This document shows, piece by piece, positions 4,340 through 17,231 of a stretch of DNA of 64,000 nucleotides. Below the pieces are notes generated by a model. That model saw only the letters and a list, made by a program, of their open reading frames with translations. It was not told the origin of the DNA and searched no databases. Within the stretch, counting starts at the first letter, position 1, and each line of letters opens with the position of its first letter. The position numbers and the translations under genes were made by a program. Source of the stretch: Saprospirales bacterium (GTDB lineage: Bacteria > Bacteroidota > Bacteroidia > Chitinophagales > Saprospiraceae); the NCBI GenBank assembly GCA_002698985.1, contig PAAY01000027.1:11231-75230 (forward strand), in the 5' to 3' direction.

Positions 4340-4465
4340 CAAATGACAGCCCGGCACGAAATTTTTTCTTCAAAAATGTACATTTGCCCGTCCCGCCAAA
4401 CCGGTTCCAATCTGCAAACACCATCCTGCCCTAAACGCATATAAGACCGCAAAACCACTGATGCA

Positions 4466-5527
4466 ATGGTGAAACAGGCCAATTCGCAAATGACTGCCCA
4501 GTTGAGTGGAAAAGCCTTGTTGGGATGGCGCATCCTGCAATGGCTGTTTCTTGCCATTGGTCTCACCATACTCTCCCTGCTTTTCTTCGCTCCGCAAATT
4601 GGCATCCACGCTTTTTGGAACGGCCTCATTCCGGTGGCACCGCTGTTGCTGGTGCTATTGCCGGGCTTGTGGCGCAACGTATGTCCGCTGGCTTTCTCTG
4701 CCATTTTGCCGCACCGCATTGGCTTGAGCGCAAAAAAACGGCTCACCGTAGCCCGGCAGGGCAAGCTCATTCTCACCGGCGTCATCCTGCTGATGCTGAT
4801 CTTGCCCTGGAGGCACCTGGTGTTGGATAACAATGGTCCTGCCACGGGGGTGGTTCTGATCTTGCTGGGTGCCATGGCCTTTTACATGGGCACGCAATAT
4901 GAATGGAAATCCGGCTGGTGTTCCGGCATGTGCCCGGTCCATCCTGTGGAGAAGTTTTACGGATCACGGCCACTGGCACCCATGCCCAACGCCCAGTGCA
5001 CCTCCTGCCACAACTGCGTAATCCCCTGTCCTGATTCCACCAAATTGCTGCAGCCGGAAAAACAGGACAACACCCGCAACCACAAACTGGCAGCCACCCT
5101 GCTGATTGGTGGCTTTCCCGGTTACATCTGGGGCTGGTTCCACATACGGGATTATCACGGCACGGAAGGCCTGGAACACATTCTTGCCGCCTACACCCTG
5201 CCATTGGCGGGCATGGCATTCACCCTTGCAGTTTACCTCTTCCTTCGGAAAAATTCAGGGATTGAAAAGTCGCTGCTAACAAGAATTTTCGCAGCCGCAG
5301 CCGTGACCTGCTACTACTGGTACCGCCTGCCAGCGCTCATCGGATTTGGCATCTATCCTGGTGACGGCATGCTCGTGGATTTGAGTGGTCAAGTTCCGAA
5401 TTACCTACCTTTCATCCTTCAGGGCGCTGCCTTGTTGTTTTTCAGCTGGTGGCTGCTCTGGAAACCAACCCCGCAAACGAGCTGGACCATCCGGCCACCT
5501 TTTGCCAATAGGAGGAAAAGATTATGA
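4466..5527 (+). CDS. Polytopic membrane protein with one ferredoxin-like Cys cluster (CTSCHNCVIPCP)
   Basis: 353-aa ORF with multiple hydrophobic spans and a central C-x2-C-x2-C-x3-CP motif. Function unknown and start codon uncertain. Confidence 0.6.
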   Translation: MVKQANSQMTAQLSGKALLGWRILQWLFLAIGLTILSLLFFAPQIGIHAFWNGLIPVAPLLLVLLPGLWRNVCPLAFSAILPHRIGLSAKKRLTVARQGKLILTGVILLMLILPWRHLVLDNNGPATGVVLILLGAMAFYMGTQYEWKSGWCSGMCPVHPVEKFYGSRPLAPMPNAQCTSCHNCVIPCPDSTKLLQPEKQDNTRNHKLAATLLIGGFPGYIWGWFHIRDYHGTEGLEHILAAYTLPLAGMAFTLAVYLFLRKNSGIEKSLLTRIFAAAAVTCYYWYRLPALIGFGIYPGDGMLVDLSGQVPNYLPFILQGAALLFFSWWLLWKPTPQTSWTIRPPFANRRKRL

Positions 5528-6858: not shown

Positions 6859-9441
6859 CTATTCTCCCTGCACCGTCCGGCCGGAGATCAGGTTTCCGAA
6901 GAAAACGGCATTGGCCATGATCTTGTTGGTGCCATACCAGAAGGCCCTGAAACTGGTGTTGTCCGTCAGGCAAATGACTCGGCCGGCGCCAATGCCTCCC
7001 ACTGCAACAGAGGCACTGCCGGGAGCCAGTTCATCAAAACTTTCGTGCATGTAGCCCGCCATCAGTGGCTTGTCGCTGTAAATGATGGGGGTGGCGTAGG
7101 GGTTTTTGGCCGGCTCCAGAAAGCGGTTGGAGCTCCTGAACACCGGCAGTTTGCTGTTACGGTAGCCGTAGCACAGCGGGTGTGTCAAGTCCAGTTCTGC
7201 CTCAAAAATGGAACCCGATAGCCGCAGTGCTCCCGCGTCGTCATCGGCACCGGCGTAGGGTTTCCGGCCGGTTTCCTTTTCGTCGTTTTCCGACTTTTTG
7301 AAGTTCAGGTTCACCAGCTTTTGGTTTACGGCCCAGTTCACCGCATTTTCCAGTGCGATGAGCACATTGCCGGCTTTTACCCAGTTGCGCAAGGCATCCG
7401 TATCCAATCCTCTGATTCGCCCTCCGGGCAACACCAGCACATTGAAACGGGCCAGGGTGGACTCATTGAGGTCATTAGCTTCGATCTTCGTCACCGGCAT
7501 CTGGTAGCGGGTATCCAACAGATGCCAGATCTCACCGGCATCGTAAGAGGTGATGCCGTCCCCGACCACTAGGGCCACTTTAGGTTTTCTGACAGTGAGC
7601 ACCTTGCGGCTGCCCAGGTCATAACCGCCGGGTGTCAATCCGGTGCTGATGCCGTAGATGGGCAGTTGCCCCAGCCGGGCAGCCTCGTCCAGGATTTTGC
7701 GAAGCGAAGCCTTGTCCATGGGTTGGTTTTGCGTCGGAACAATGATGGCGCCGTAAGTGAAAGCCCTGTTACCTTCCGGGGTGACGGCCGTGAAAGGCGT
7801 TCCGGCCACTTTTACCCGCACCTTGTTTTTCTGAAGGTGGTAAAGGGCTGCCGGGGCAAGGTAGTGGTCCCAGTCGAAAGCCCATGCGTAGGCATTGCCG
7901 TCGTCTTTCACTTCGCCTGCGGCAACGGGGAGGGTGGTGCCTGTGAGTTGTTTGCCGAGCAGACCGGGCAGTGCCTCACCGGCGGCCTCGTACTTCAGGT
8001 TGAAGGCCAGCGGCATGGTCCAGGCGCTGATGTCGTAAAAGAGGCTGTCCTCGAAGCTCGTCTCCCGCTGGAAAATGCCCTGGATGAGGCGGTACTGCGG
8101 CTGATCAAATGGAATGACGTAGGCTTTGCCGGGTTCGAAGTCGGTGCCGTTGAGGGTGGTCTTTTTAGTCAGTTCGTAAACTTTGATGTCTTGCCTCAGC
8201 AGCATTTCCACGAAGCGACTCAGCCTGACGGGGTCGTAGTCATCACCTACAACGAAACCCCGGCGTTTGTCCCTGCGGGCCAGGTCCAGGCCGGTTTTAT
8301 AGTGCTCCCGCTGAAAGTCCAGCAGTTCCTTCCGCAATGCCACGATGGCCGCATGGGTGGAGAGCGCCGTGGTCACCTGGTTGCGGATGGTGAAAGGAAA
8401 GGAGAGCGGGCCGTTGTCGGTTTTCTGCAAATGCCCCCGGCTGCTGGCCTGTTCGAACAGGATGCCGATGCAACCCTGCGCATCGGGGAAGGTGGAGCCT
8501 TTGCCGTAGTAGAAATCGTCGTAACCCTCCTCGGTGTAATACAGCGAGCCGATCTTGTCCAGGGCTTTGGCGTGGAAGGTGGCGATTTTGGCGGTGAGTT
8601 CCTGGTTCTTTTTGGGTGTGATGGGATTGATGCGGCTCTGCACCCCAGGCATGAAAAAGAAGGTGCTGTTGGTGCCCATTTCGTGGTGGTCGGTCAACAC
8701 GTTGGGCTTCCATTTCTGGAACAGCGCAATGCGTCCCTGGCTTTCCGGGTGCTGTGCCGGCAGCCAGTCCCGGTTCAGGTCGAACCAGTAGTGGTTGGTG
8801 CGGCCCCGTGGCCAAACCTCATTGTACTCCCGGTCTGCCGGATCGCCAGTGAGGTTTTTGTTTTTGTGCATGTTGGTCCAGGTGCTGAAACGCTGAAATC
8901 CGTCGGGGTTGAAACAGGGATCGAAAATGATAACGGCATTCTGCAACAGGGTTTCTACCTCCTGGCTCTTTCCCGCAGCCAGGTAATAGGCCACAAGCAG
9001 TGCACCATTGGCACCGCTGGCTTCATTGCCGTGTATGCTGAAACCCTGGTAGAGCACTACGGGCATGTCGCTGATGTCCACATCTGCCGAGCGGGCGGGG
9101 TCGGTCAGCGCCACATGCTGCCGGCGGATGTCCTCCAGCCGGCCGTGGTTTTCCGGTGAGGTGATGATCAGGTGAATGAGCGGCCGGTTTTCGTAAGTGC
9201 GGCCGTGTTCTTCCAGTTTGATGCGGTCGGGAGCGGCGGCAGCAAGGGTCCGGTAGTAGTACAGCAACTGGTCGTGGCTGGCGTGCCATTCACCCACCTG
9301 GTAGCCCAATACAGATTCCGGCGTCGGAATGGCCGGGTCGTATTCGATGTCGGGCAGGTAGTAGGTGATGGGCAGCGACTGTGCCGGCATTGCGCCAGCG
9401 ATGAAAAAAACAGCAAGTAAAGTAGTGAGTAATTTGCGCAT
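6859..9441 (-). CDS. M14-family zinc metallocarboxypeptidase, secreted
   Basis: 860 aa with a signal peptide (MRKLLTTLLAVFFIAGAMPAQS). Contains FSIHGNEASG, which fits the HxxE zinc motif of M14 carboxypeptidases, followed by a long C-terminal extension. Confidence 0.85.
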   Translation of the reverse strand: MRKLLTTLLAVFFIAGAMPAQSLPITYYLPDIEYDPAIPTPESVLGYQVGEWHASHDQLLYYYRTLAAAAPDRIKLEEHGRTYENRPLIHLIITSPENHGRLEDIRRQHVALTDPARSADVDISDMPVVLYQGFSIHGNEASGANGALLVAYYLAAGKSQEVETLLQNAVIIFDPCFNPDGFQRFSTWTNMHKNKNLTGDPADREYNEVWPRGRTNHYWFDLNRDWLPAQHPESQGRIALFQKWKPNVLTDHHEMGTNSTFFFMPGVQSRINPITPKKNQELTAKIATFHAKALDKIGSLYYTEEGYDDFYYGKGSTFPDAQGCIGILFEQASSRGHLQKTDNGPLSFPFTIRNQVTTALSTHAAIVALRKELLDFQREHYKTGLDLARRDKRRGFVVGDDYDPVRLSRFVEMLLRQDIKVYELTKKTTLNGTDFEPGKAYVIPFDQPQYRLIQGIFQRETSFEDSLFYDISAWTMPLAFNLKYEAAGEALPGLLGKQLTGTTLPVAAGEVKDDGNAYAWAFDWDHYLAPAALYHLQKNKVRVKVAGTPFTAVTPEGNRAFTYGAIIVPTQNQPMDKASLRKILDEAARLGQLPIYGISTGLTPGGYDLGSRKVLTVRKPKVALVVGDGITSYDAGEIWHLLDTRYQMPVTKIEANDLNESTLARFNVLVLPGGRIRGLDTDALRNWVKAGNVLIALENAVNWAVNQKLVNLNFKKSENDEKETGRKPYAGADDDAGALRLSGSIFEAELDLTHPLCYGYRNSKLPVFRSSNRFLEPAKNPYATPIIYSDKPLMAGYMHESFDELAPGSASVAVGGIGAGRVICLTDNTSFRAFWYGTNKIMANAVFFGNLISGRTVQGE

Positions 9442-9620
9442 GAGGCAGTTGTTTTTGTTGGGCGGCTAAGATAGTTTTTTGCGGGAAGAGCGTGGCACTT
9501 CATGCCCGTCTTAGATTGAGTGAGAAACAGCACTTTGGCATCCCTTACGGGATTAGCAGGATTTAGTCAGTGGACAGAGGGGCAGAGTAGTTAATCTCTA
9601 CCTACCCCTGACATAAGTAC

Positions 9621-9735
9621 CCCCTTTGTCATCCGTCGGAGGCGGATCTTCCTAACAAGCGGTTAGGTACATGGGTGCCCACAGTGCTCTGAACTCCCCG
9701 TTGGTAGTTCCTCCTTTGGAGGATGACAAAGGGGG
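9621..9735 (+). repeat. MITE-like ~115-bp element, copy 1
   Basis: 14-bp terminal inverted repeats CCCCTTTGTCATCC ... GGATGACAAAGGGG. Subterminal hairpins ATCCGYC-GGAG-GCGGAT and TCCTCC-TTY-GGAGGA. Confidence 0.85.
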
Positions 9736-9777
9736 GAGTGGTTGCTTTCATGATTCCTGCTGTTCAGTCAAAGCTAG

Positions 9778-9892
9778 CCCTCTTTGTCATCCGCCGGAGG
9801 CGGATCTTCAAAGAAAACGGGCAGGTACATGGGCGCCGACAGTGCCCTGAAAACCTCATTGGTAGTTCCTCCTTCGGAGGATGACAAGGGGG
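9778..9892 (+). repeat. MITE-like ~115-bp element, copy 2
   Basis: Same architecture as copy 1, largely identical by eye. Immediately preceded by GCTAGC at 9773-9778. Confidence 0.85.
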
Positions 9893-9898
9893 AGGGGG

Positions 9899-9985
9899 GC
9901 CGCAGGTGGATCTTCAAAGAAAACGGGCAGGTACATGGGCACCCACAGTGCCCTGAACGCCCCGTTGGTAGTTCATCCATTGATA
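9899..9985 (+). repeat. MITE-like element, copy 3 (5'-truncated, degenerate 3' end)
   Basis: Shares GGATCTTCAAAGAAAACGGGCAGGTACATGGGCNCC-ACAGTGCCCTGAA with copy 2 but lacks the left terminal repeat. Confidence 0.75.
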
Positions 9986-10111
9986 CCGCCAACCACCAAC
10001 CAATTTGACCCTGCACTGACTTTTCTCATTGGCCCTCTTGGCCTGATTTCAGAACATTGCGGCTCATTTTCAGAACCATCTATCAAGTCCAAAACTCAAC
10101 AATAACCAACC

Positions 10112-10753
10112 ATGATTTTAGTAGGAAAAAAAGCACCGGATTTCAAAGCTGCTGCCGTGGTGAACGGCAATGAGATCGTCGAAGATTTCTCACTCTCCGA
10201 TTTCAAAGGCAAGAAGTACGTCATCCTGTTTTTCTATCCCAAAGACTTCACCTTCGTTTGCCCCACGGAGCTTTTCGCCTTTCAGGAAAAGCTGGAAGAA
10301 TTTGAAAGCCGCAACTGCCAGGTCATCGCCTGCTCTACCGACACAGAAATGTCCCACTGGGGCTGGCTCCAGATGGAGCGCAAGTTGGGTGGCATCAAGG
10401 GCGTGAAATACCCCCTGGTGGCCGACACCAACAAGACCATTGCCGCCAACTACGATGTGCTGGCCGGTGAGTGGGATTACAACGAAGAGGGAGAAATGAT
10501 CGCTACCGGCGAGATGGTGGCCTACCGCGGCCTGTTCCTCATCGACAAAGAAGGCATCGTGCGCCACCAGGTGGTCAACGACATGCCCCTTGGCCGCAGC
10601 GTGGAGGAGGCCCTCCGGGTGCTCGATGCCCTGCAGTACACCGAACAATACGGCCAGGTATGCCCCGCCAACTGGCACAAAGGCGAAGAAGCCATCCCCA
10701 CCACCCACGAAGGCGTGGCTGAATATCTGGAAAGCAAGTTCCGTCAGAACTGA
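10112..10753 (+). CDS. Typical 2-Cys peroxiredoxin (AhpC/Prx1 subfamily)
   Basis: Peroxidatic Cys motif DFTFVCPTE and resolving Cys motif VCPANW. 213 aa. Confidence 0.92.
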   Translation: MILVGKKAPDFKAAAVVNGNEIVEDFSLSDFKGKKYVILFFYPKDFTFVCPTELFAFQEKLEEFESRNCQVIACSTDTEMSHWGWLQMERKLGGIKGVKYPLVADTNKTIAANYDVLAGEWDYNEEGEMIATGEMVAYRGLFLIDKEGIVRHQVVNDMPLGRSVEEALRVLDALQYTEQYGQVCPANWHKGEEAIPTTHEGVAEYLESKFRQN

Positions 10754-10798
10754 TTTTTTATGTCCGACCCCTGCCGGATGGCAGGTGGCACCACCCGC

Positions 10799-10836
10799 AA
10801 GCCTCTCCCGTATGGAGGGGCTTGTGTGGTTTTGGA
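10799..10836 (+). terminator. Possible terminator after the peroxiredoxin gene
   Basis: Hairpin AAGCCTCTCC-CGTAT-GGAGGGGCTT with one mismatch, followed by GTGTGGTTTTGG. The T tract is weak. Confidence 0.4.
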
Positions 10837-10914
10837 GGTACAGGAGCTAACTTTCAGATAGCTCCTGTTTTCAGGTCTTACAGATGTGAATTATATCAGG
10901 CGAGTGGCGAGGAC

Positions 10915-13116
10915 TCATTCGTTACCCTTTGCTTCCCGCTCGTCCAACACGGCCAGCCCTTGGAGTACATTTTTTGAATACGGATGTTCCGCCCCCAACT
11001 TCGACAAAAAGACCGCTTTCGCCTTTTCGAGGAGGCTGCGCGCTTCACCGAACTCTTTCATGTTCATGAGCACGGCGGCCAGGTTTGAGTAACTCACAGC
11101 GGTGTTGGGATGTTCGGTGCCAAAATTTTTCTCATCAGACTCCACGGCCTTTTCCAATAGCTCCTTTGCCCCTTTGTAATCTCCGAGGGCCTTAAGCACC
11201 GAAGCCAGGTTTGAGTAAGTCACAGCGGTTGTGGGATGTTCTGGGCCAAAATTTTTCTCCGCAGATTCCATGGCCTTTTGCAATAGCCCCTTTGCCGCCT
11301 TGTAATCTCCGAGGGCCTGAAGCACCGAAGCCAGGTTTGAGTAAGTCACAGCGGTTGTGGGATGGTGGGGGCCAAAATTTTTCTCATCAGACTCCACGGC
11401 CTTTTCCAATAGCCCCTTTGCCGCCTTGTAATCTCCGAGGGCCTGAAGCACCGAAGCCAGGTTTGAGTAAGTCACAGCGGTTTTGGGATGGTGGGGGCCA
11501 AAATTTTTCTCATCAGACTCCATGGCCTTTTGCAATAGCCCCTTTGCCCCCTTGTAATCTCCGAGGTCCTTAAGCACTAAAGCCAGGTTTGAGTAACTCA
11601 CAGCGGTGTTGGGATGTTCTGGGCCAAAATTTTTCTCATCAGACTCCATGGCCTTTTCCAATAGCTCCTTTGCCGCCTTGTAATCTCCGAGGGCCTGAAG
11701 CACTAAAGCCAGGTTTGAGTAAATCACAGCGGTTTTGGGATGTTCTGGGCCAAAATTTTTCTCCGCAGATTCCATGGCCTTTTGCAATAGCCCCTTTGCC
11801 CCCTTGTAATCTCCGAGGTCCTTAAGCCTCAAACCCAAGTTGTTTCGGAGGGTAGCCTTTTCACTGAATTCGAGGTGTTCGGCGGCATCGAGCACGGCCT
11901 GCCCGTAGGGTATCCAGGGGAATTTGTCCACCGGGTTGTCTTTCGTTTGGTCTATGTAGAGTTTTTGTGTAAAAGTTTCCACCAGCGGCAGCAAGTCTTC
12001 AAGGGTGGGTGGGTGGGCATGGGCTACAATGGCTTTTATCAGCCGGTGGGTGCCGTAGCGGTGTTTGGCGGGTTGCATGAGCCAGCCTAGCTTATAAAGT
12101 GTCTGTAGGTTGTTGGCAAAGGCAGTGGTCTGCCCTTCTTCGATTTGGAACCACTCGGCCAGGTCTTTGGCGGGGTATCCTTCGGCAGTAGGGGGCAGGG
12201 CGGCCATTTGCTTCAGCAGTCGCATCAGTTCGGGGCGTTGCGCAATGCCGGAGAGGTCGAAGGCCTGCAAGAGGTGGCGGTACAAAGTGGTTTCACCGCC
12301 GGCGTGTTCCAGTTCCACGATGGTTTGCAGGCTGGCAGCATCGAGCTGGTTGTTCTTCAGGTATTCGGCTAGCTCTTCCACGGTTTCCATTATCGGGTGG
12401 GTGTCCAGGATCTTGGCAAAGAGCTCGATGCTGAGGGTGTGCCGCTCCAAAGTGTTTTCCAGAAAGTCAGTCAACGCAGCTTCATCCTGTGGCTTTTCGC
12501 AATGTTTCCGGAAGAGTGCTTTGGCGGCCTCCAGGTCGAGTTTCCCCAATTCTTTCACTTTGATGTTGCCAATGACCTGTCGTGAAGTCAGCAGCACATG
12601 CCAATTTGGACCGTGCGGTAGTTTACCCAGGGCCTCTCTACTCGACTGATCCACATTGTCGAGTACGAGCAGAGCACGTTTTCCCTCTGCACGGTTTTGC
12701 AGAGCAAGCATCATTTTTTCATAAACGGCTTCGTAAGGTTCTCCAGGCTCCTGTTTGATGCCAAGGGCTGCCTGCAAACCTGGATCATTGACCACGGATT
12801 CCTGAAGTGTCGTCTTTTGCTCGATCCAGGCAAGGTGGTCGTACTGTTCCCGGTATTTGTTGGCGTACAGCTTGGCCAGGGTAGTTTTGCCAATGCCACC
12901 TATGCCGTTCATGAGGAGCAGGCTGGAAGATTCCTCCAGCAGTGCTCTGAGGTCCGAAAGGTCATCGTCCCGGCCAATTACGTCGTTGGGATCGATGTGC
13001 GGAATCGAGGTGAGGTAGTGGGGAATTTCCGGTGACTCCGAGCCGTGCATGTGTACCGGCCCGTAATTCTTCTCAATATTGACCTGTTTGTTTGCAATAA
13101 ATTTCTTCTTTTCCAT
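10915..13116 (-). CDS. STAND NTPase: short N-terminal motif + NB-ARC P-loop domain + C-terminal TPR (kinesin-light-chain-like) repeats (NLR-like)
   Basis: Walker A GIGGIGKTTLA and Walker B LLVLDNVD, both typical of NB-ARC. At least 7 x 42-aa TPR units (NFGPEHPxTAVxYSNLAxVLxxLGDYKxAKxLLxKAxES). The N-terminus MEKKKFIANKQVNIEKNYGPVHMHG shares a motif with the upstream small protein. Confidence 0.88.
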   Translation of the reverse strand: MEKKKFIANKQVNIEKNYGPVHMHGSESPEIPHYLTSIPHIDPNDVIGRDDDLSDLRALLEESSSLLLMNGIGGIGKTTLAKLYANKYREQYDHLAWIEQKTTLQESVVNDPGLQAALGIKQEPGEPYEAVYEKMMLALQNRAEGKRALLVLDNVDQSSREALGKLPHGPNWHVLLTSRQVIGNIKVKELGKLDLEAAKALFRKHCEKPQDEAALTDFLENTLERHTLSIELFAKILDTHPIMETVEELAEYLKNNQLDAASLQTIVELEHAGGETTLYRHLLQAFDLSGIAQRPELMRLLKQMAALPPTAEGYPAKDLAEWFQIEEGQTTAFANNLQTLYKLGWLMQPAKHRYGTHRLIKAIVAHAHPPTLEDLLPLVETFTQKLYIDQTKDNPVDKFPWIPYGQAVLDAAEHLEFSEKATLRNNLGLRLKDLGDYKGAKGLLQKAMESAEKNFGPEHPKTAVIYSNLALVLQALGDYKAAKELLEKAMESDEKNFGPEHPNTAVSYSNLALVLKDLGDYKGAKGLLQKAMESDEKNFGPHHPKTAVTYSNLASVLQALGDYKAAKGLLEKAVESDEKNFGPHHPTTAVTYSNLASVLQALGDYKAAKGLLQKAMESAEKNFGPEHPTTAVTYSNLASVLKALGDYKGAKELLEKAVESDEKNFGTEHPNTAVSYSNLAAVLMNMKEFGEARSLLEKAKAVFLSKLGAEHPYSKNVLQGLAVLDEREAKGNE
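11078..11833. repeat. Six near-identical 126-bp tandem units encoding the TPR array of the NLR-like gene
   Basis: GCCAGGTTTGAGTAA recurs at 11078, 11204, 11330, 11456, 11582 and 11708, an exact 126-nt period. Degenerate units flank the array on both sides. Confidence 0.9.
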
Positions 13117-13157
13117 AGCTCGAATTTATATGGAAAATTGGGTGTTACCCTATTGTC

Positions 13158-13544
13158 TCACATGTTGATCGGTCCGTAATTCGTCTGAATATTGACGATT
13201 TTTTCGGCTGTTTGCTGGTTGAGTTGGATGATGCCGTTTTGGTGGAGATCATGGAGGTGATGGGCCAGCTGGGCCAGGAACTGTGGATCGGAAGCAGCTT
13301 TTTGTTCAATGGCCTGGGTCAACCGTTTTTCGGTCTCTGTAGTAGGTGGTTTTTGCTCCACTTCTTCGACGAGTTCGGGTTGCTCCTTCAAAAAGATGGG
13401 CCTCATCCATTCCCAAATGGCTGTGGAAAGTTCCTTGCTGGCAGTTTTGGCGCCTTCGGTCTTAGATAGGGCCTTGAGGATGTAGCCGGCTGCAGCAGCG
13501 GCAAGTGTAATGGGTTCAATCGCCATGGTTGAATTACTTTGCAA
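13158..13544 (-). CDS. Small helical protein with hydrophobic N-terminal helix and C-terminal NLR-matching motif (candidate effector/adaptor partner)
   Basis: 128 aa, located 41 bp upstream of and co-oriented with the NB-ARC/TPR gene. N-terminal IEPITLAAAAAGYILKAL. The C-terminus ...AEKIVNIQTNYGPINM-stop aligns with residues about 8-23 of the NTPase. Confidence 0.7.
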   Translation of the reverse strand: MQSNSTMAIEPITLAAAAAGYILKALSKTEGAKTASKELSTAIWEWMRPIFLKEQPELVEEVEQKPPTTETEKRLTQAIEQKAASDPQFLAQLAHHLHDLHQNGIIQLNQQTAEKIVNIQTNYGPINM

Positions 13545-13927
13545 TTTCGTAGGACTGTCAGTTTGCTCCTCTGTAGAAGCATACTATTTATTTTAATTCT
13601 TCTCGTTTTCTCTAAGCATGTCTTTTTTGCAGGAATTGCTATCACATAGCCCTGCTCATTATTCATCTGGGTGCAAGGTAAAAAAGTTTTTTAGCAATCG
13701 ATGGATGTTGGTTTTAGTTATCAACCGACGTTGCCCCGAAAAACAAAAAAACTTTTTGTTTCAAAGAGTAAAACAATCAAAAACAAAAAGTTTTAAAACT
13801 CCTTCCCGCCCCTTACCTTTGCCTCCCGGCCCACCGCCGGAGAATCGAACACGCACTCCCCGCATACAAGACTGGACCCAGTGCCCGGCGCATACATGAG
13901 TTTCCGGATCATCGGCAGCGCAGTGCA

Positions 13928-13972
13928 GCCCACTGCCTACTGCCCACTGAACACTGCCCACTGAACACTGCC
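13928..13972. repeat. Short tandem repeat (TGCCCACTGAACAC-type) abutting the dnaE2-like start codon
   Basis: CCCACTGCCTACTGCCCACTGAACACTGCCCACTGAACACTGCC. The reverse-complement module (CAGTGTTCAGTGGGCAGT) occurs inside the gene at about 14815-14832. Confidence 0.85.
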
Positions 13973-13973
13973 T

Positions 13974-16900
13974 ATGCACCTGGCATCGCACACATATTAC
14001 AGCCTGCGCTACGGCACCCTGTCGCCCCGGCAGCTGGTGGAGGCGGCGCAGGCCCGCGGGGTGGAGACCCTGGCCCTCACCGATGTGAACAACACCTCGG
14101 CGGCGGGGGAATTCGTGCGGCTGTGCCGGGAGGCGGGCATCCGGCCCCTGCTGGGCATCGACTTCTTCCGCGACGGGCAGCGGCTCTACACCGGCCTGGC
14201 CCGCAACGCCGACGGCTTCTGCGCCCTCAACCGCTTCCTGTCGGTGCACTCCATCCAGGGGCGGCCCCTGCCCACCCTGGCCAGCGAGTGGGACTGGAAC
14301 CCCGCCGAGGTGGCCTTCATCTACCCCCGCCTGGTCAAGCCCATCGAGCGCTTTGCCGGGTACGAGTACCTGGGCGTGCGGCCCGAGCACGTACACCGGC
14401 TGTTCAGCTCGCCGGTGCGCCACCACCCCGACCGGCTCATCGCCTTCAGCCCCGTGACCTTCCTCGACGAGGAGGGCTGGGAACTGCACCGCCTGCTGCG
14501 GGCCATCGACCTGAACACCCTGCTGTCGAAACTCCAACCCACCGATCACGCCCCAAAGACCGAACTCTTCCACCCGCCGGCCGTGCTGCGGGATTTTTAC
14601 AAGCTCTACCCCCGCCTGCTCGAAAACGCCGGGCGCCTCGCCGAATCCTGCGAGATCGAGCTGGAAACGGGCCTGCACATCAACCGCCAAACCTTCACCG
14701 GCAGCCGAGAGGGCGACTACAAGCTGCTCGAAAAACTCACCCTCGAGGGATTCAAAAGGCGGTTTCCGGAGTGTTCAGTGGCCCCCGATACCGAAAGCTT
14801 TCGGTATCGGGGTCAGTGTTCAGTGGGCAGTAAGCAGTTGGCAGTTGGGCGTTCCGACGCGACCAGAAAGCCCCCTCATCCCTCCCCCGATGCCGATAGC
14901 TATCGGCACGGGGCATCCCCCTCCTCGAAGGGCCCCAGGGGGCTGACCAACCCTACACCCTCAACCCTCAACTCTAAACTCTCAACCCTACACCCTACAC
15001 CCTACACCCGCCTCCACCGCGAGCTCGAGGTGATCCGCGAGATGGACTTCTGCGCCTACTTCCTCATCACCTGGGACATCGTGCGCTATGCGCAGTCGGC
15101 GGGCTACCACCACGTGGGGCGGGGCAGCGGAGCGAACTCGCTGGTGGCCTACTGCCTGGGCATCACCGACGTGGACCCGCTGGAGCTGGACCTCTACTTC
15201 GAGCGCTTCATCAACCGCAACCGGCCCTCGCCGCCGGATTTCGACATCGACTTTTCCTGGGACGAGCGCGACGACGTGACCGACTACATCTTCAAGCGCT
15301 ACGGCTGGGAGTACACGGCCCTGCTGGCCACCTACAGCACCTTCCAGTTCAACGCCGCCGTGCGCGAGGTGGGCAAGGTTTTCGGTTTGCCGAAGGAAGA
15401 AATAGACAACTTTGCCGACGAACTGCTCCGCAAGATGGGCACCGAGGATGTGCGCTACTGGAAGCGCGAGCAGGGTGGCCGGCTGTTGCGCAGCGAAGAG
15501 GAACCCAACCGCCGCCACCTGCCCTCCGACATCCACGCGCAGGTGCTTCGCTTCGCAAAACGGCTGCACGGCTTCCCCAACCACCTGTCCATCCACGCCG
15601 GCGGGGTGCTCATCTCCGAGCGGCCCATCTTCTACCACACGGCCCTGCAGATGATGCCCAAGGGCTTCCCCATCACGCACTTCGACATGCACCACGCCGA
15701 AGACCTCGGCTTCCACAAGTTCGATGTGCTCAGCCAGCGCGGCCTGGGCCACATCAAAGACGCCGTGGACCTCATCAAACTCAACCAGGGCAAGGCCGTC
15801 GACATCCACGACGTGGCCGCCATCAAAAAGGACGAGCGGGTGCGGGCTCAACTGCGCAGCGGCCACTGCATCGGCTGCTTTTACATCGAAAGCCCGGCCA
15901 TGCGGGGCCTGCTCAAAAAGCTGCGCTGCGACACCTACCACCACCTGGTGGCGGCCAGCAGCATCATCCGCCCCGGCGTGGCGCAGTCTGGCATGATGAA
16001 GGAGTACATCCGCCGCTTCCACGCACCCAATTCTTTCGACTACCTGCACCCGGTGTTCAAAGAGCACCTGGGCGAGACCTTCGGCGTCATGGTCTATCAG
16101 GAGGACGTGATGAAGATCGTACACCACTTCGCCGGCCTGGGCCTCGACGAGAGCGACATGCTGCGGCGCCTCATGAGCGGCAAAAAGCGCCAGGGCGACC
16201 AGTTCGAGCTGCTCAAGCGCAAGTACTTCGACAACTGCCGCCGCCTGGGCCACCCCGATGCGCTGGCCAAAGAGGTGTGGCGCCAGATCGAGAGCTTTGC
16301 CGGCTACTCCTTCTGCAAGGCCCACTCGGCCAGCTACGCCGTGGAGAGCTTCCAGAGCCTGTACCTGAAGACCTACTACCCGCTGGAGTTCATGGTGGCC
16401 GTCATCAACAACTTCGGCGGTTTCTACCGCACGGAGTACTACTTCCACGAGGCCCGCATGGCCGGCGCCACCATCCACGCTCCCTGCGTCAACAACAGCC
16501 AGTACCTCACTTCGCTGCGCAACAAAGACATCTACGTGGGCTTCATCCACCTCAACGGCCTGGAGCGACAGACGGCGGCCAAAATCGTGCACCAGCGCAC
16601 GGTGGGTGGCCCCTTCCGCAGCCTGGCCGATTTCATCAGCCGGGTGGACATCGGCGCCAGCCAGCTGGAGCTGCTCATCCGCATCGGGGCCTTCCGCTTC
16701 ACGGGCCTCAGCAAGGGCGCCCTGCTCTGGGAGAAAAACGCCGTGTTCAATCCCCGCGAAAAGTTCGAGGCTTCGGGCCTGCTCTTCCCCGATCCGCACG
16801 AAAACTACGAGCTGCCTCCCCTGGAGGAGGGCCCCTACGACCAGGCTTTCGACGAAATAGAACTGCTGGGCTTCCCGCTCTGCTCGCCCTTCGAGCTGCT

Positions 16901-17231
16901 GGCCGATGCCTCCTGGGCCGCCGAGGGCATCACCGCCGCCGACCTGTCCCGCAGCCTGGGCCGATACGTCACCATGATCGGCTACTACGTCTGCCGCAAG
17001 GACGTGCGCACCGTCAAAAAGGAGCTGATGCACTTCGGCACCTGGCTCGACCGCGACGGCCATTTCTTCGACACGGTGCACTTCCCCAATTTCATCAAAA
17101 ACGCTCCCTTCCGCGGCCGCGGCATCTACCGCATCGAGGGCCGCGTGGTGGAGGAGTTCGGCTTCTGCTCACTGGAAGTGGTGAAGATGGAAAAACTGCC
17201 GTTCAGGAAAGATGAGCGGTATGGAGGATGA
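13974..17231 (+). CDS. DNA polymerase III alpha-subunit family protein, DnaE2/ImuC-like (error-prone type), with an in-frame repeat-derived insertion
   Basis: 1085 aa. N-terminal PHP domain (MHLASHTYYSLRYGTLSPRQLVEAAQARGVETLALTDVNN), then REMDFCAYFLITWDIVRYA, and polymerase core motifs (HAGGVLIS, FDVLSQRGL, FCKAHSASYA). Third codon positions are almost all G/C. The subtype call (DnaE2 rather than replicative DnaE) is inferred from the N-terminal sequence type and the length. Confidence 0.85.
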   Translation: MHLASHTYYSLRYGTLSPRQLVEAAQARGVETLALTDVNNTSAAGEFVRLCREAGIRPLLGIDFFRDGQRLYTGLARNADGFCALNRFLSVHSIQGRPLPTLASEWDWNPAEVAFIYPRLVKPIERFAGYEYLGVRPEHVHRLFSSPVRHHPDRLIAFSPVTFLDEEGWELHRLLRAIDLNTLLSKLQPTDHAPKTELFHPPAVLRDFYKLYPRLLENAGRLAESCEIELETGLHINRQTFTGSREGDYKLLEKLTLEGFKRRFPECSVAPDTESFRYRGQCSVGSKQLAVGRSDATRKPPHPSPDADSYRHGASPSSKGPRGLTNPTPSTLNSKLSTLHPTPYTRLHRELEVIREMDFCAYFLITWDIVRYAQSAGYHHVGRGSGANSLVAYCLGITDVDPLELDLYFERFINRNRPSPPDFDIDFSWDERDDVTDYIFKRYGWEYTALLATYSTFQFNAAVREVGKVFGLPKEEIDNFADELLRKMGTEDVRYWKREQGGRLLRSEEEPNRRHLPSDIHAQVLRFAKRLHGFPNHLSIHAGGVLISERPIFYHTALQMMPKGFPITHFDMHHAEDLGFHKFDVLSQRGLGHIKDAVDLIKLNQGKAVDIHDVAAIKKDERVRAQLRSGHCIGCFYIESPAMRGLLKKLRCDTYHHLVAASSIIRPGVAQSGMMKEYIRRFHAPNSFDYLHPVFKEHLGETFGVMVYQEDVMKIVHHFAGLGLDESDMLRRLMSGKKRQGDQFELLKRKYFDNCRRLGHPDALAKEVWRQIESFAGYSFCKAHSASYAVESFQSLYLKTYYPLEFMVAVINNFGGFYRTEYYFHEARMAGATIHAPCVNNSQYLTSLRNKDIYVGFIHLNGLERQTAAKIVHQRTVGGPFRSLADFISRVDIGASQLELLIRIGAFRFTGLSKGALLWEKNAVFNPREKFEASGLLFPDPHENYELPPLEEGPYDQAFDEIELLGFPLCSPFELLADASWAAEGITAADLSRSLGRYVTMIGYYVCRKDVRTVKKELMHFGTWLDRDGHFFDTVHFPNFIKNAPFRGRGIYRIEGRVVEEFGFCSLEVVKMEKLPFRKDERYGG
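14768..15008. repeat. Intergenic-type repeat modules embedded in frame within the polymerase gene
   Basis: Perfect 30-bp palindrome CCCCGATACCGAAAGCTTTCGGTATCGGGG at 14783-14812. ATGCCGATAGCTATCGGCAc at 14890-14909. CCTCATCCCTCCCC and (CTACACC)x3 at about 14985-15008. It encodes a low-complexity ~75-aa stretch (CSVAPDTESFRYRGQ...STLHPTPY). Confidence 0.85.

What the first reader, a model, noticed from the sequence alone, without database searches (positions are those of the whole stretch)
10915..13544. NLR-like two-gene module: a small helical protein and an NB-ARC/TPR NTPase share a terminal ~16-aa motif (candidate amyloid or prion-like signalling pair)
Seen in sequence. The 128-aa protein ends ...AEKIVNIQTNYGPINM-stop. 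The NB-ARC/TPR protein, 41 bp downstream on the same strand, starts MEKKKFIANKQVNIEKNYGPVHMHG. Aligned, they give A-x-K-x-V-N-I-x-x-N-Y-G-P-[VI]-x-M, 10 of 16 identical. The match is also visible at nucleotide level (13161-13196 versus 13048-13083). The small protein has a hydrophobic N-terminal helix (IEPITLAAAAAGYILKAL) and is otherwise helical and charged. Established knowledge. In fungal HET-S/NWD2-type systems, and in the bacterial Bell-domain/BASS systems described by Dyrka, Saupe and colleagues, the C-terminus of a membrane-targeting effector and the N-terminus of the neighbouring NLR (NB-ARC or NACHT plus TPR/WD) carry the same short amyloid-forming motif. This lets the activated NLR template the effector. 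Inference. This pair has exactly that gene order, orientation, motif placement and domain logic. However, the motif is short and N/G/hydrophobic-rich, and I cannot match it from memory to any BASS family. The host also appears to be a Bacteroidota. It may therefore be an undescribed motif family or an abortive-infection-like cell-death module.
Basis: partly seen in the sequence, partly recalled or inferred. Interest (0 to 1): 0.86.

Follow-up and report, generated by a model that had tools for sequence, protein, structure and literature searches.

The report
Known Bell/BASS2–NLR amyloid signalling pair

Summary
A 122-aa helical protein (13158-13526, minus strand) ends in AEKIVNIQTNYGPINM. The NB-ARC/TPR protein 41 nt downstream (10915-13116) starts with ANKQVNIEKNYGPVHM at residues 8-23. 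That is 10 of 16 identical residues, and 0 of 20,000 shuffles reached the score.

The interpretation (Bell-type effector plus NLR sharing an amyloid signalling motif) is supported. The motif recurs and co-varies in related gene pairs from other Saprospiraceae/Bacteroidota assemblies. Close paralogous NLRs carry a fused trypsin-like domain where the motif would be.

The suggestion of an undescribed motif family is wrong. The last 27 residues of the small protein are, letter for letter, entry A0A2E0VQP9_9BACT in the BASS2 set of Dyrka et al. 2021. A profile built from that published block without this entry scores 25 bits on the Bell side and 12 bits on the NLR side. The N-domain profile hits a published Bacteroidota Bell protein at E = 2e-12.

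Only the NLR pairing in this MAG seems unlisted: it is absent from Table S2 of the 2020 preprint.

Amyloid templating and membrane killing are inferred from tested relatives (BASS1, BASS3, BASS11 Bab/Agp), not shown here. Novelty is low.

The parts
13158..13526 (-). Bell-domain effector gene (122 aa, MAT53752.1 / CMN32_04680, annotated 'hypothetical protein'); true start is ATG 13526
   Evidence: ORF. Exact database match. phmmer finds 60 relatives, mostly about 116-148 aa, sharing the N-domain. The N-domain HMM hits the published Bell protein PAC32596.1 at 53 bits, E = 1.8e-12.
13239..13526 (-). Helical Bell-type domain, residues 1-96: five predicted helices (5-21, 28-48, 50-58, 63-79, 81-96)
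   Evidence: AlphaFold2 with a 55-sequence alignment gave pLDDT 71-89 over most of residues 1-100, dipping to about 60 in the 21-30 loop. Nearly invariant columns are W40, P43 and L87.
13464..13514 (-). N-terminal hydrophobic helix (residues 5-21, PITLAAAAAGYILKALS), the putative membrane-inserting element
   Evidence: Read from the sequence; helix 5-21. The role is inferred from Bell/HeLo/Bab literature.
13161..13241 (-). Bell-side BASS2 motif region (residues 96-122, QNGIIQLNQQTAEKIVNIQTNYGPINM); core 16 residues at 13161-13208
   Evidence: Identical to entry A0A2E0VQP9_9BACT / C02_s210 in the published BASS2 set. Scores 25.2 bits against an HMM of that block built without it; shuffle maximum 6.9. 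Predicted disordered in the monomer, pLDDT below 50 for residues 104-122.
13117..13157 (-). 41-nt intergenic spacer; the two genes are probably co-transcribed
   Evidence: No sigma-70-like promoter was found in 10700-13900, but that scan does not cover Bacteroidota promoters.
10915..13116 (-). NLR-type STAND NTPase gene (733 aa, MAT53751.1 / CMN32_04675): N-terminal motif, NB-ARC, then TPR array
   Evidence: Pfam; exact database match; homologues.
13048..13095 (-). NLR-side BASS2-type motif (residues 8-23, ANKQVNIEKNYGPVHM)
   Evidence: Alignment to the Bell C-terminus. Scores 12.3 bits against the published-block HMM, with shuffles at mean -1.4 and maximum 3.0. It is the second-best hit of that HMM in the whole six-frame translation of the window, but E = 0.61 there.
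12340..12942 (-). NB-ARC nucleotide-binding domain (residues 59-259), with P-loop GIGGIGKTT (residues 71-79, 12880-12906) and Walker B-like LLVLDNVD
   Evidence: Pfam PF00931 at 39.5 bits against a cut-off of 23.5. The motifs were read from the translation.
10969..11850 (-). TPR sensor array (residues 423-716): seven 42-aa units, six of them near-identical (126-nt period, 91% matches, 11078-11827)
10840..10868 (-). Perfect 10-bp hairpin (ACAGGAGCTA, 9-nt loop, TAGCTCCTGT) about 47 nt after the NLR stop; a possible terminator of the two-gene unit
   Evidence: Read from the sequence. The terminator scan did not report it because it has no T-run and its loop exceeds 8 nt. Weak evidence.

Best explanation
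This is a two-gene Bell/BASS2-NLR amyloid signalling module of the kind defined by Dyrka, Saupe and colleagues, carried by a marine Saprospirales (Bacteroidota) MAG.

**Shown here**
- The small protein is a Bell-family helical protein with a hydrophobic N-terminal helix and a disordered C-terminal BASS2-type motif.
- The neighbour is an NB-ARC/TPR STAND NTPase whose N-terminus carries the same motif.
- The motif pair is conserved and co-varies in related loci.
- In close paralogous NLRs a fused trypsin-like domain occupies the position where the motif sits here.

**Inferred from experimentally studied relatives**
1. The near-identical TPR repeats sense a ligand, probably derived from a phage or other invader.
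2. The NB-ARC domain oligomerises, which brings the N-terminal motifs together so that they adopt a cross-beta fold.
3. That fold templates the identical-type motif at the C-terminus of the Bell protein.
4. This conversion releases the Bell N-terminal helix to attack the membrane.
5. The cell dies or arrests, as in abortive infection.
For: - **Anatomy and significance of the match:** (score 56; 0 of 20,000 shuffles reach it).
- **Published classification:** the exact 27-residue C-terminus is in the BASS2 (C02) file of PMC8086366. Those files are described as Bell-side fragments matched by the BASS profile HMMs.
- **Independent re-test:** an HMM of the published block, built without this entry, gives 25.2 bits for the Bell side and 12.3 bits for the NLR side. 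Shuffle maxima are 6.9 and 3.0.
- **Bell homology:** 60 relatives, mostly small proteins, share the N-domain and carry very diverse C-terminal motifs. The profile hits the published Bell protein PAC32596.1 from Flectobacillus at E = 1.8e-12. The model has five helices and a disordered tail.
- **Co-variation between partners:**
  - window: GPINM / GPVHM
  - L008: GTINIY / GIINIH
  - L001 and L002: GDINL, GDIHL / GDIHV, GDIYV
  - L004: IKNQTNIDTNHG / MKNQINIDKNSG, plus a third partner carrying EAD11
  - L006: a different motif, KNIVRKDITRVKKVRIGD / KKNVVGKGITAKGNVTIGD
  - The cognate assignment is among the best 4 of 720 permutations.
- **Selection at protein level:** in L001, L002 and L008 the two motif-coding segments are only 55-60% identical in DNA.
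- **Effector-position swap:** paralogues P0007, P0008, P0010 and P0011 (53-59% identical) have Trypsin_2 at the N-terminus.
- **Mechanistic precedent:** BASS1 and BASS3 form prions and fibrils, and the NLR side converts the Bell side (abstract and section list). In E. coli, Bab/Agp (BASS11) is an abortive-infection system in which amyloid signalling activates a Bell-related killer that relocates to the cell periphery.
Against: - No experiment exists on this pair or, as far as I found, on any BASS2 peptide. The fibril and prion tests in the papers I read used BASS1, BASS3 and BASS11, plus three other bacterial and archaeal peptides whose BASS class I did not determine, one of them BASS3-like.
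- The NLR-side motif alone is weak against the BASS2 block: 12 bits, and E = 0.61 in a window-wide search.
- The pair is absent from Table S2 of the 2020 preprint.
- Foldseek found no significant structural match. The best hit had E about 1, and the MLKL executioner domain appeared only at E = 4.7. Fold-level kinship to HeLo, MLKL or Bab is therefore not shown.
- The neighbourhood is housekeeping genes, not a defence island, and PADLOC gives nothing significant.
- Some homologous NLRs with motif-like N-termini have no Bell gene in the sequence available (L005, L007). One Bell homologue (L010) has no adjacent NLR.
Confidence: 0.8

Rival explanations
1. The shared motif is a docking tag that mediates an ordinary, stoichiometric hetero-association between the NLR N-terminus and the small protein (beta-strand pairing or adaptor-like recruitment). 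There would be no prion-like amyloid templating. The small protein would still be the recruited effector.
For: - Sequence analysis cannot separate templating from simple binding.
- In L004 the same motif also sits on an EAD11 adaptor-type protein. That fits a general recruitment tag.
- The motif core is short (16 residues) and contains a proline.
Against: - The motif falls in a family (BASS) whose tested members form fibrils and prions.
- Its N/Q/G/V/I-rich composition with a conserved N-x-G turn matches the beta-arch pattern described for BASS.
- It is predicted disordered in the monomer.
- L006 has two pseudorepeats on the Bell side against one on the NLR side, the HET-s-like arrangement expected for templating.
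Confidence: 0.12
2. The similarity is a recent partial duplication or gene conversion of the NLR 5' end onto a neighbouring small ORF (or the reverse), or a chance resemblance, with no signalling function.
For: In this window the two segments are unusually similar in DNA: 75% over 48 nt, about 83% over the 36-nt core, and 8 of 10 identical residues use the same codon.
Against: - No shuffle out of 20,000 reaches the observed score.
- The small protein is an independently conserved family with 60 cluster representatives.
- Related pairs keep matching motifs while their DNA has diverged to 55-60% identity with different codons.
- Changes occur on both partners together.
- If gene conversion occurs, it is more likely the means by which the partners stay matched.
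Confidence: 0.03
3. The small protein is a regulator or inhibitor of the NLR, an antitoxin-like partner that caps the NLR N-terminus, rather than a death effector. The killing activity would lie elsewhere.
For: - The NLR has no recognisable enzymatic effector domain.
- No toxicity data exist for this Bell protein.
- The structure search did not link it to pore-formers.
Against: - The N-terminal hydrophobic helix and the five-helix architecture match the Bell/Bab description.
- Bab, a Bell-related domain, is the executioner in the one system tested.
- Paralogous NLRs place a trypsin-like effector domain where the motif sits, which implies the motif recruits an effector.
Confidence: 0.05

Closest known systems
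Bell-domain / BASS2 - NB-ARC/TPR gene pairs (Dyrka et al. 2020, bioRxiv 10.1101/2020.01.06.895854; data sets in Dyrka et al. 2021, PMC8086366)
   Same: - A small (~120 aa) helical Bell protein with a hydrophobic N-terminal helix.
- A C-terminal motif of about 25 residues rich in N, Q, G, V and I.
- A collinear adjacent NB-ARC/TPR gene whose N-terminus repeats the motif.
- A short intergenic distance, and TPR units of high internal identity.
- The Bell-side fragment of this exact protein is listed under BASS2.
   Different: - The pair itself is not in Table S2 of the preprint.
- The preprint describes paired BASS2 as specific to Actinobacteria, whereas this host is a Saprospirales (Bacteroidota) MAG.
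- The motif belongs to the 'EK-[QIL]-[VI]-N-I-Q-x-N-x-G-x-I-x-[MFL]' sub-block of BASS2, not the classical Streptomyces 'ISGGTQ-GPVLQGRDFSG' form.
Bab/Agp (BASS11) abortive-infection system of E. coli ECOR25 (Ibarlosa et al. 2024, bioRxiv 10.1101/2024.11.07.622273)
   Same: - Two adjacent genes.
- A small helical Bell-related killer with a C-terminal amyloid motif.
- A TPR-containing sensor with the same motif at its N-terminus.
- This system gives the experimental precedent for phage-triggered templating, relocation to the membrane and cell death.
   Different: - The sensor here is NB-ARC/TPR, not TPR-GreA/B-C-PIN.
- The motif is BASS2-type, not BASS11.
- The effector has 122 aa and five helices, against the 109-aa 'Babybell'.
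- The locus is not in a prophage or defence hotspot.
Fungal HET-S/NWD2 and HELLP/PNT1 NLR-amyloid pairs
   Same: The logic is the same: the NLR N-terminal motif templates the C-terminal prion-forming motif of a neighbouring membrane-targeting effector. Repeat sensor domains also show high internal conservation.
   Different: There is no HeLo or HELL domain hit and no HRAM, sigma or PP motif. The host is bacterial. The sensor is NB-ARC/TPR, whereas NWD2 is NACHT/WD.
Bacterial antiphage STAND NTPases (Avs, bNACHT)
   Same: STAND NTPase with a C-terminal repeat sensor and an N-terminal effector position.
   Different: There is no significant PADLOC hit (best Avs4 E = 0.049). The effector is encoded separately and recruited through a motif rather than fused.

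Membership tests
Bell/BASS-NLR amyloid signalling pair (Dyrka et al. 2020) | Small protein (~120-140 aa) with a ~100-aa alpha-helical Bell domain that begins with a hydrophobic helix | tested here: met
   - 122 aa, with five predicted helices in residues 5-96 and N-terminal helix 5-21.
- The family HMM hits the published Bell protein PAC32596.1 at 53 bits, E = 1.8e-12 with Z = 1e6.
- The protein is listed among Bell-side sequences in PMC8086366.
- The authors' own Bell HMM was not available, and Foldseek was uninformative.
Bell/BASS-NLR amyloid signalling pair (Dyrka et al. 2020) | Adjacent (within 5 kb), usually collinear gene encoding NB-ARC or NACHT plus TPR or WD repeats | tested here: met
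   Same strand, 41 nt downstream. NB-ARC at 39.5 bits (cut-off 23.5) and TPR_12 at 343 bits.
Bell/BASS-NLR amyloid signalling pair (Dyrka et al. 2020) | The same short motif at the Bell C-terminus and the NLR N-terminus | tested here: met
   10 of 16 residues identical, Smith-Waterman score 56, 0 of 20,000 shuffles reach it.
Bell/BASS-NLR amyloid signalling pair (Dyrka et al. 2020) | The motif pair is conserved and co-varies across related gene pairs | tested here: met
   Five further loci (L001, L002, L004, L006, L008) keep matching partner motifs that differ between loci. The cognate assignment is in the top 4 of 720 permutations. The sample is small.
Bell/BASS-NLR amyloid signalling pair (Dyrka et al. 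2020) | The motif forms amyloid fibrils or prions, and the NLR-side motif converts the Bell-side motif | not testable with these tools
   Needs peptides, ThT, EM, solid-state NMR or in vivo foci assays. The only indirect support is that the monomer tail is predicted disordered and has BASS-like composition.
Bell/BASS-NLR amyloid signalling pair (Dyrka et al. 2020) | The Bell domain executes cell death at the membrane | not testable with these tools
   Inferred from Bab. There is no structural match to pore-formers.
BASS2 motif family | Bell-side C-terminus matched by the BASS2 profile HMMs | tested here: met
   The exact 27-mer is listed in ucluster_02 (BASS2 according to the README) as A0A2E0VQP9_9BACT and as C02_s210. 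A surrogate HMM of 38 published block members, built without it, gives 25.2 bits against a shuffle maximum of 6.9, and E = 1e-5 against the whole six-frame window.
BASS2 motif family | NLR-side N-terminus matched by the same profile | tested here: inconclusive
   The 40-residue N-terminus scores 12.3 bits, with shuffles at mean -1.4 and maximum 3.0. It ranks second in the window, but E = 0.61 as a full ORF. It is not present in the published NLR-side test file or in Table S2.
BASS2 motif family | Better fit to BASS2 than to BASS1 and BASS3-11 | not tested
This point relies on the published assignment.
Bab/Agp (BASS11) system | Sensor with TPR-GreA/B-C-PIN architecture and a BASS11 motif | tested here: not met
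   Pfam shows NB-ARC plus TPR only, with no PIN or GreA/B domain. The system is analogous, not a member.
Fungal HET-S/NWD2-type pairs | HeLo or HELL effector domain with an HRAM, sigma or PP motif | tested here: not met
   The small protein has no Pfam hit at E <= 0.1. The system is analogous only.
Known antiphage defence systems (PADLOC-DB v2) | Significant match to a PADLOC model | tested here: not met
   Best non-TPR hits are PDC-S73 at E = 0.0021 and Avs4 at E = 0.049 for the NLR, and PDC-S48 at E = 0.018 for the small protein.

The most novel reading that the evidence does not exclude
This may be the first documented NLR-paired BASS2 motif outside Actinobacteria. In Saprospiraceae the same motif sub-type may link one NLR to more than one downstream partner, namely a Bell pore-former and an EAD11 adaptor protein as in locus L004. 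The partner motifs may be kept matched by local gene conversion, suggested by the high DNA identity of the two segments in the window and in L004. That would make BASS2 a modular, multi-output signalling tag in Bacteroidota rather than a one-to-one Actinobacterial pair.
Probability: 0.3. Interest if true: 0.35.

Novelty: already known. Interest (0 to 1): 0.22.

Why it matters
The finding adds little to biology. It confirms that NLR-amyloid-Bell modules extend into marine Saprospirales, and it shows that a careful reading of raw sequence can recover such a pair.

Three practical points follow:
- Both genes are still annotated 'hypothetical protein' in the MAG (MAT53752.1 and MAT53751.1) and could be annotated properly.
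- The pair was missed by the published pair table although its Bell side is in the BASS2 set. This illustrates the limited sensitivity of profile searches on NLR-side motifs.
- BASS2 appears to lack direct experimental tests. A short, clean Bacteroidota pair with a 16-residue core would be a convenient test case.

Tried and rejected
- **Family libraries.** Pfam, NCBIfam and PADLOC give nothing usable for the small protein.
- **Word-indexed protein search.** It found only 3 close relatives of the small protein. The full HMMER scan was needed.
- **The search for related loci.** With 8 close sequences the single genome-contig scan returned one locus, the same contig as L001, so no large-scale co-variation census was possible.
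- **Structure.** Foldseek against the PDB with the alignment-based model gave no hit better than E about 1. A profile search of PDB sequences gave nothing meaningful. Kinship to Bab, HeLo or MLKL could not be tested at fold level.
- **Loci without a visible partner.** L005 and L007 hold NLR homologues with motif-like N-termini but no small partner gene upstream, and the contigs end inside the NLR, so a downstream partner (as in L006) cannot be excluded. L010 has a Bell homologue with no adjacent NLR, and the weak IKNQ resemblance to the upstream 333-aa protein was not pursued.
- **L002 small protein.** It carries the motif, but only its C-terminal half resembles the Bell profile (16 bits, not significant).
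- **Context.** A defence-island setting was rejected: the neighbours are an M14 peptidase, a peroxiredoxin, a DnaE-type polymerase, an FG-GAP protein and RmuC.
- **RNA and regulatory signals.** Rfam found nothing in 9000-14200. No sigma-70 promoter was found, and the terminator-like sites were at the level seen in shuffles (4 found, 5.0 expected), none at the end of the unit.


Full report
**1. The observation**

On the minus strand a small ORF ends at 13158 with ...QNGIIQLNQQTAEKIVNIQTNYGPINM*. Forty-one nucleotides downstream a 733-aa ORF (13116 to 10915) begins MEKKKFIANKQVNIEKNYGPVHMHG.

Local alignment gives AEKIVNIQTNYGPINM against ANKQVNIEKNYGPVHM: 10 of 16 identical, score 56. None of 20,000 shuffles of the NLR N-terminus reached this (mean 17.3, sd 3.6, maximum 48).

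Eight of the 10 shared residues use the same codon.

One correction is needed. The small protein is 122 aa, starting at ATG 13526. Homologues and the database entry start there, not at the upstream TTG.

**2. What the two proteins are**

*The large protein.* It has an NB-ARC domain (39.5 bits against a cut-off of 23.5, residues 59-259), with P-loop GIGGIGKTT and a Walker B-like LLVLDNVD. Seven 42-aa TPR units follow, six of them 91% identical in DNA.

*The small protein.*
- It has no Pfam, NCBIfam or significant PADLOC hit.
- An exhaustive phmmer scan found 60 cluster representatives, mostly about 116-148 aa.
- These share an N-domain (consensus ..A.GYI....SKG...A..E.S.A.W.WIRP.FLKD.., with W40, P43 and L87 nearly invariant) but have very diverse C-terminal tails rich in N, Q, G, V and I.
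- With that alignment, AlphaFold2 predicts five helices (5-21, 28-48, 50-58, 63-79, 81-96) and a disordered tail from residue 104.

This is the description of the Bell domain in Dyrka et al. 2020: about 100 aa, a five-helix bundle with a hydrophobic N-terminal helix, in proteins of about 120-140 aa.

A profile of the N-domain alone hits PAC32596.1 of Flectobacillus at 53 bits, E = 1.8e-12. That is a published Bell protein of a Bacteroidota Bell/NLR pair.

Foldseek and PDB sequence searches were uninformative. Fold-level kinship with Bab, HeLo or MLKL is therefore not shown.

**3. The motif is already classified**

I searched the supplementary data of Dyrka et al. 2021 (PMC8086366) for fragments of the motif. 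The exact 27-residue C-terminus QNGIIQLNQQTAEKIVNIQTNYGPINM is there. It appears as A0A2E0VQP9_9BACT in ucluster_02.input.fa and as C02_s210 in the non-redundant sets. The README maps C02 to BASS2. The paper says these files hold Bell-side fragments matched by the BASS profile HMMs.

The same block contains other Bacteroidota tails and cyanobacterial ones:
- ..KVEKQINIQTNTGSINM (Sphingobacteriia)
- ..KVEKQINIQTNTGDIKF (Flavobacteriia)
- ..IEKLVQVGTNYGGIHI (cyanobacteria)

As my own test I built an HMM from 38 members of that block, leaving this protein out:

| Sequence | Score (bits) | Shuffle maximum |
|---|---|---|
| Window Bell tail | 25.2 | 6.9 |
| Window NLR N-terminus | 12.3 | 3.0 (mean -1.4) |

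In a six-frame search of the whole window these two ORFs are the two best hits. Only the Bell side is significant on its own (E = 1e-5 against E = 0.61).

The pair itself is not in Table S2 of the 2020 preprint, and the NLR side is not in the published NLR-side file. The preprint describes paired BASS2 as Actinobacteria-specific, although it already reports Bell/NLR pairs in Bacteroidetes such as Spirosoma and Flectobacillus.

The window comes from a marine 'Saprospirales bacterium' MAG. The two proteins are MAT53752.1 and MAT53751.1, both annotated as hypothetical.

**4. Conservation and co-variation**

The table shows related pairs.

| Locus | Bell-side C-terminus | Partner N-terminus |
|---|---|---|
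| window | AEKIVNIQTNYGPINM* | ANKQVNIEKNYGPVHM |
| L008 (GCA_003696825.1) | AQKIVEIKTNYGTINIY* | NSKLVQVQSNMGIINIH |
| L001 (Saprospiraceae MAG, NLR 65% identical) | ENVKIVHVGTNIGDINL* | GSKVVIVENQHGDIHVHG |
| L002 | GENVKIVSVGTNIGDIHL* (on a diverged 100-aa N-domain) | GSKVVIVENQHGDIYVHG |
| L004 | AEIKNQTNIDTNHGNLTFH* | MKNQINIDKNSGHVSIYN; a third gene encodes MEISNEKANIKNQINIQNNYAPINL.. fused to EAD11 |
| L006 (Bell gene downstream of the NLR) | KNIVRKDITRVKKVRIGD and KNIVEGNVSDVDEFTLGD (two pseudorepeats of another motif) | KKNVVGKGITAKGNVTIGD |

The residue after the conserved glycine (P, T/I or D) and the tail change on both partners together. The cognate assignment is among the best 4 of 720 permutations.

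In L001, L002 and L008 the two coding segments are only 55-60% identical in DNA and use different codons for shared residues. The match is therefore kept at the protein level and is not a fresh duplication. In the window and in L004 the DNA is more alike, which is compatible with occasional gene conversion.

NLR paralogues P0007, P0008, P0010 and P0011 are 53-59% identical to the window NLR. They carry a trypsin-like domain at the N-terminus instead of the motif. This is the effector-position swap typical of NLRs.

**5. How it most likely works**

*Shown here:* the architecture, the matched and co-varying motifs, Bell homology and BASS2 classification.

*Inferred:*
1. The near-identical TPR units bind a trigger.
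2. The NB-ARC domain oligomerises and clusters the N-terminal motifs into a cross-beta nucleus.
3. The nucleus templates the Bell C-terminal motif.
4. The Bell N-terminal helix is released to damage the membrane.
5. The cell dies or arrests.

The precedents come from the literature:
- BASS1 and BASS3 act as prion-forming domains and form fibrils, and NLR-side motifs convert Bell-side motifs.
- Bab/Agp of E. coli (BASS11) is an abortive-infection system in which phage T5 triggers amyloid assembly and a Bell-related killer moves to the cell periphery.

I found no direct test of a BASS2 peptide.

The locus lies among housekeeping genes. Its GC content is lower (44-55%) than that of its flanks (57-70%). 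The pairs in L001 and L002 sit in different neighbourhoods. Both points suggest a mobile two-gene cassette.

**6. Rivals**

- A plain docking tag without templating cannot be excluded by computation (about 0.12).
- A functionless duplication is contradicted by the independent conservation of the small protein and by the diverged DNA of matched motifs elsewhere (about 0.03).
- An inhibitor role for the small protein is unlikely given its Bell architecture and the effector-position swap (about 0.05).

**7. Verdict**

It is, however, a member of a described family (Bell/BASS2-NLR), and its Bell-side motif is already in a published data set.

The residual novelty is small:
- the NLR pairing in this Saprospirales MAG appears unlisted;
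- paired BASS2 had been described as Actinobacteria-specific;
- a related locus shows a three-partner arrangement with EAD11.

Interest is low (about 0.2).

Noticed in passing
window 11078-11827 (TPR array of the NLR) and cluster members P0004, P0095-P0102: Six 126-nt TPR units are 91% identical. Proteins at least 90% identical from other assemblies are 565, 607, 649, 733 and 775 aa long, which corresponds to 2, 3, 4, 6 and 7 'GDYK' units. This is either repeat-number polymorphism of the sensor domain, as described for fungal and bacterial NLRs, or collapse of repeats in short-read assemblies.
   Followed up: partly
window 9620-9990: The intergenic region between the M14 carboxypeptidase and the peroxiredoxin gene holds three direct copies of an ~80-122-nt element (9635-9714, 9793-9872, 9899-9978; 81-89% identical). 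The first two copies are each bracketed by ~33-nt inverted arms; no such arms were found around the third. There is no Rfam match. It looks like a MITE- or REP-like structured repeat.
   Followed up: partly
L004:10-2851 (JGI metagenome 3300037319): Three consecutive genes share one BASS2-like motif: a Bell-like C-terminus, a 112-aa protein with the motif at its N-terminus fused to EAD11 (PF19964), and an NB-ARC/TPR NLR. This suggests one NLR signalling to two partners.
   Followed up: partly
L006:2501-5268 (ENA ERZ26867463, 8.2-Mb contig): The Bell homologue lies downstream of the NLR and carries two pseudorepeats of a different motif (KNIV..[IL]GD) that matches the NLR N-terminus once, a HET-s-like r1/r2 arrangement. 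The NLR reading frame appears split inside the TPR array (a separate ORF at 4405-4812).
   Followed up: no
proteins P0007, P0008, P0010, P0011 (homologues of the window NLR): These close paralogues (53-59% identical over the NB-ARC region) carry a Trypsin_2 (PF13365) domain at the N-terminus in place of the amyloid motif.
   Followed up: no
window 10800-13800 versus its flanks: The Bell/NLR segment has 44-55% GC, whereas the flanking genes have 57-70%. This is consistent with horizontal acquisition of the cassette.
   Followed up: no
window 13928-13972: A short tandem repeat (14-nt unit GCCCACTGAACACT, 3.2 copies) lies immediately upstream of the DnaE-type polymerase gene (13974-17231).
   Followed up: no
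L002:3687-3989: A 100-aa protein carries the same C-terminal motif as the L001 Bell protein, but its N-terminal half is different. Only its C-terminal half resembles the Bell profile (16 bits, not significant). It may be a shortened or divergent effector domain.
   Followed up: partly
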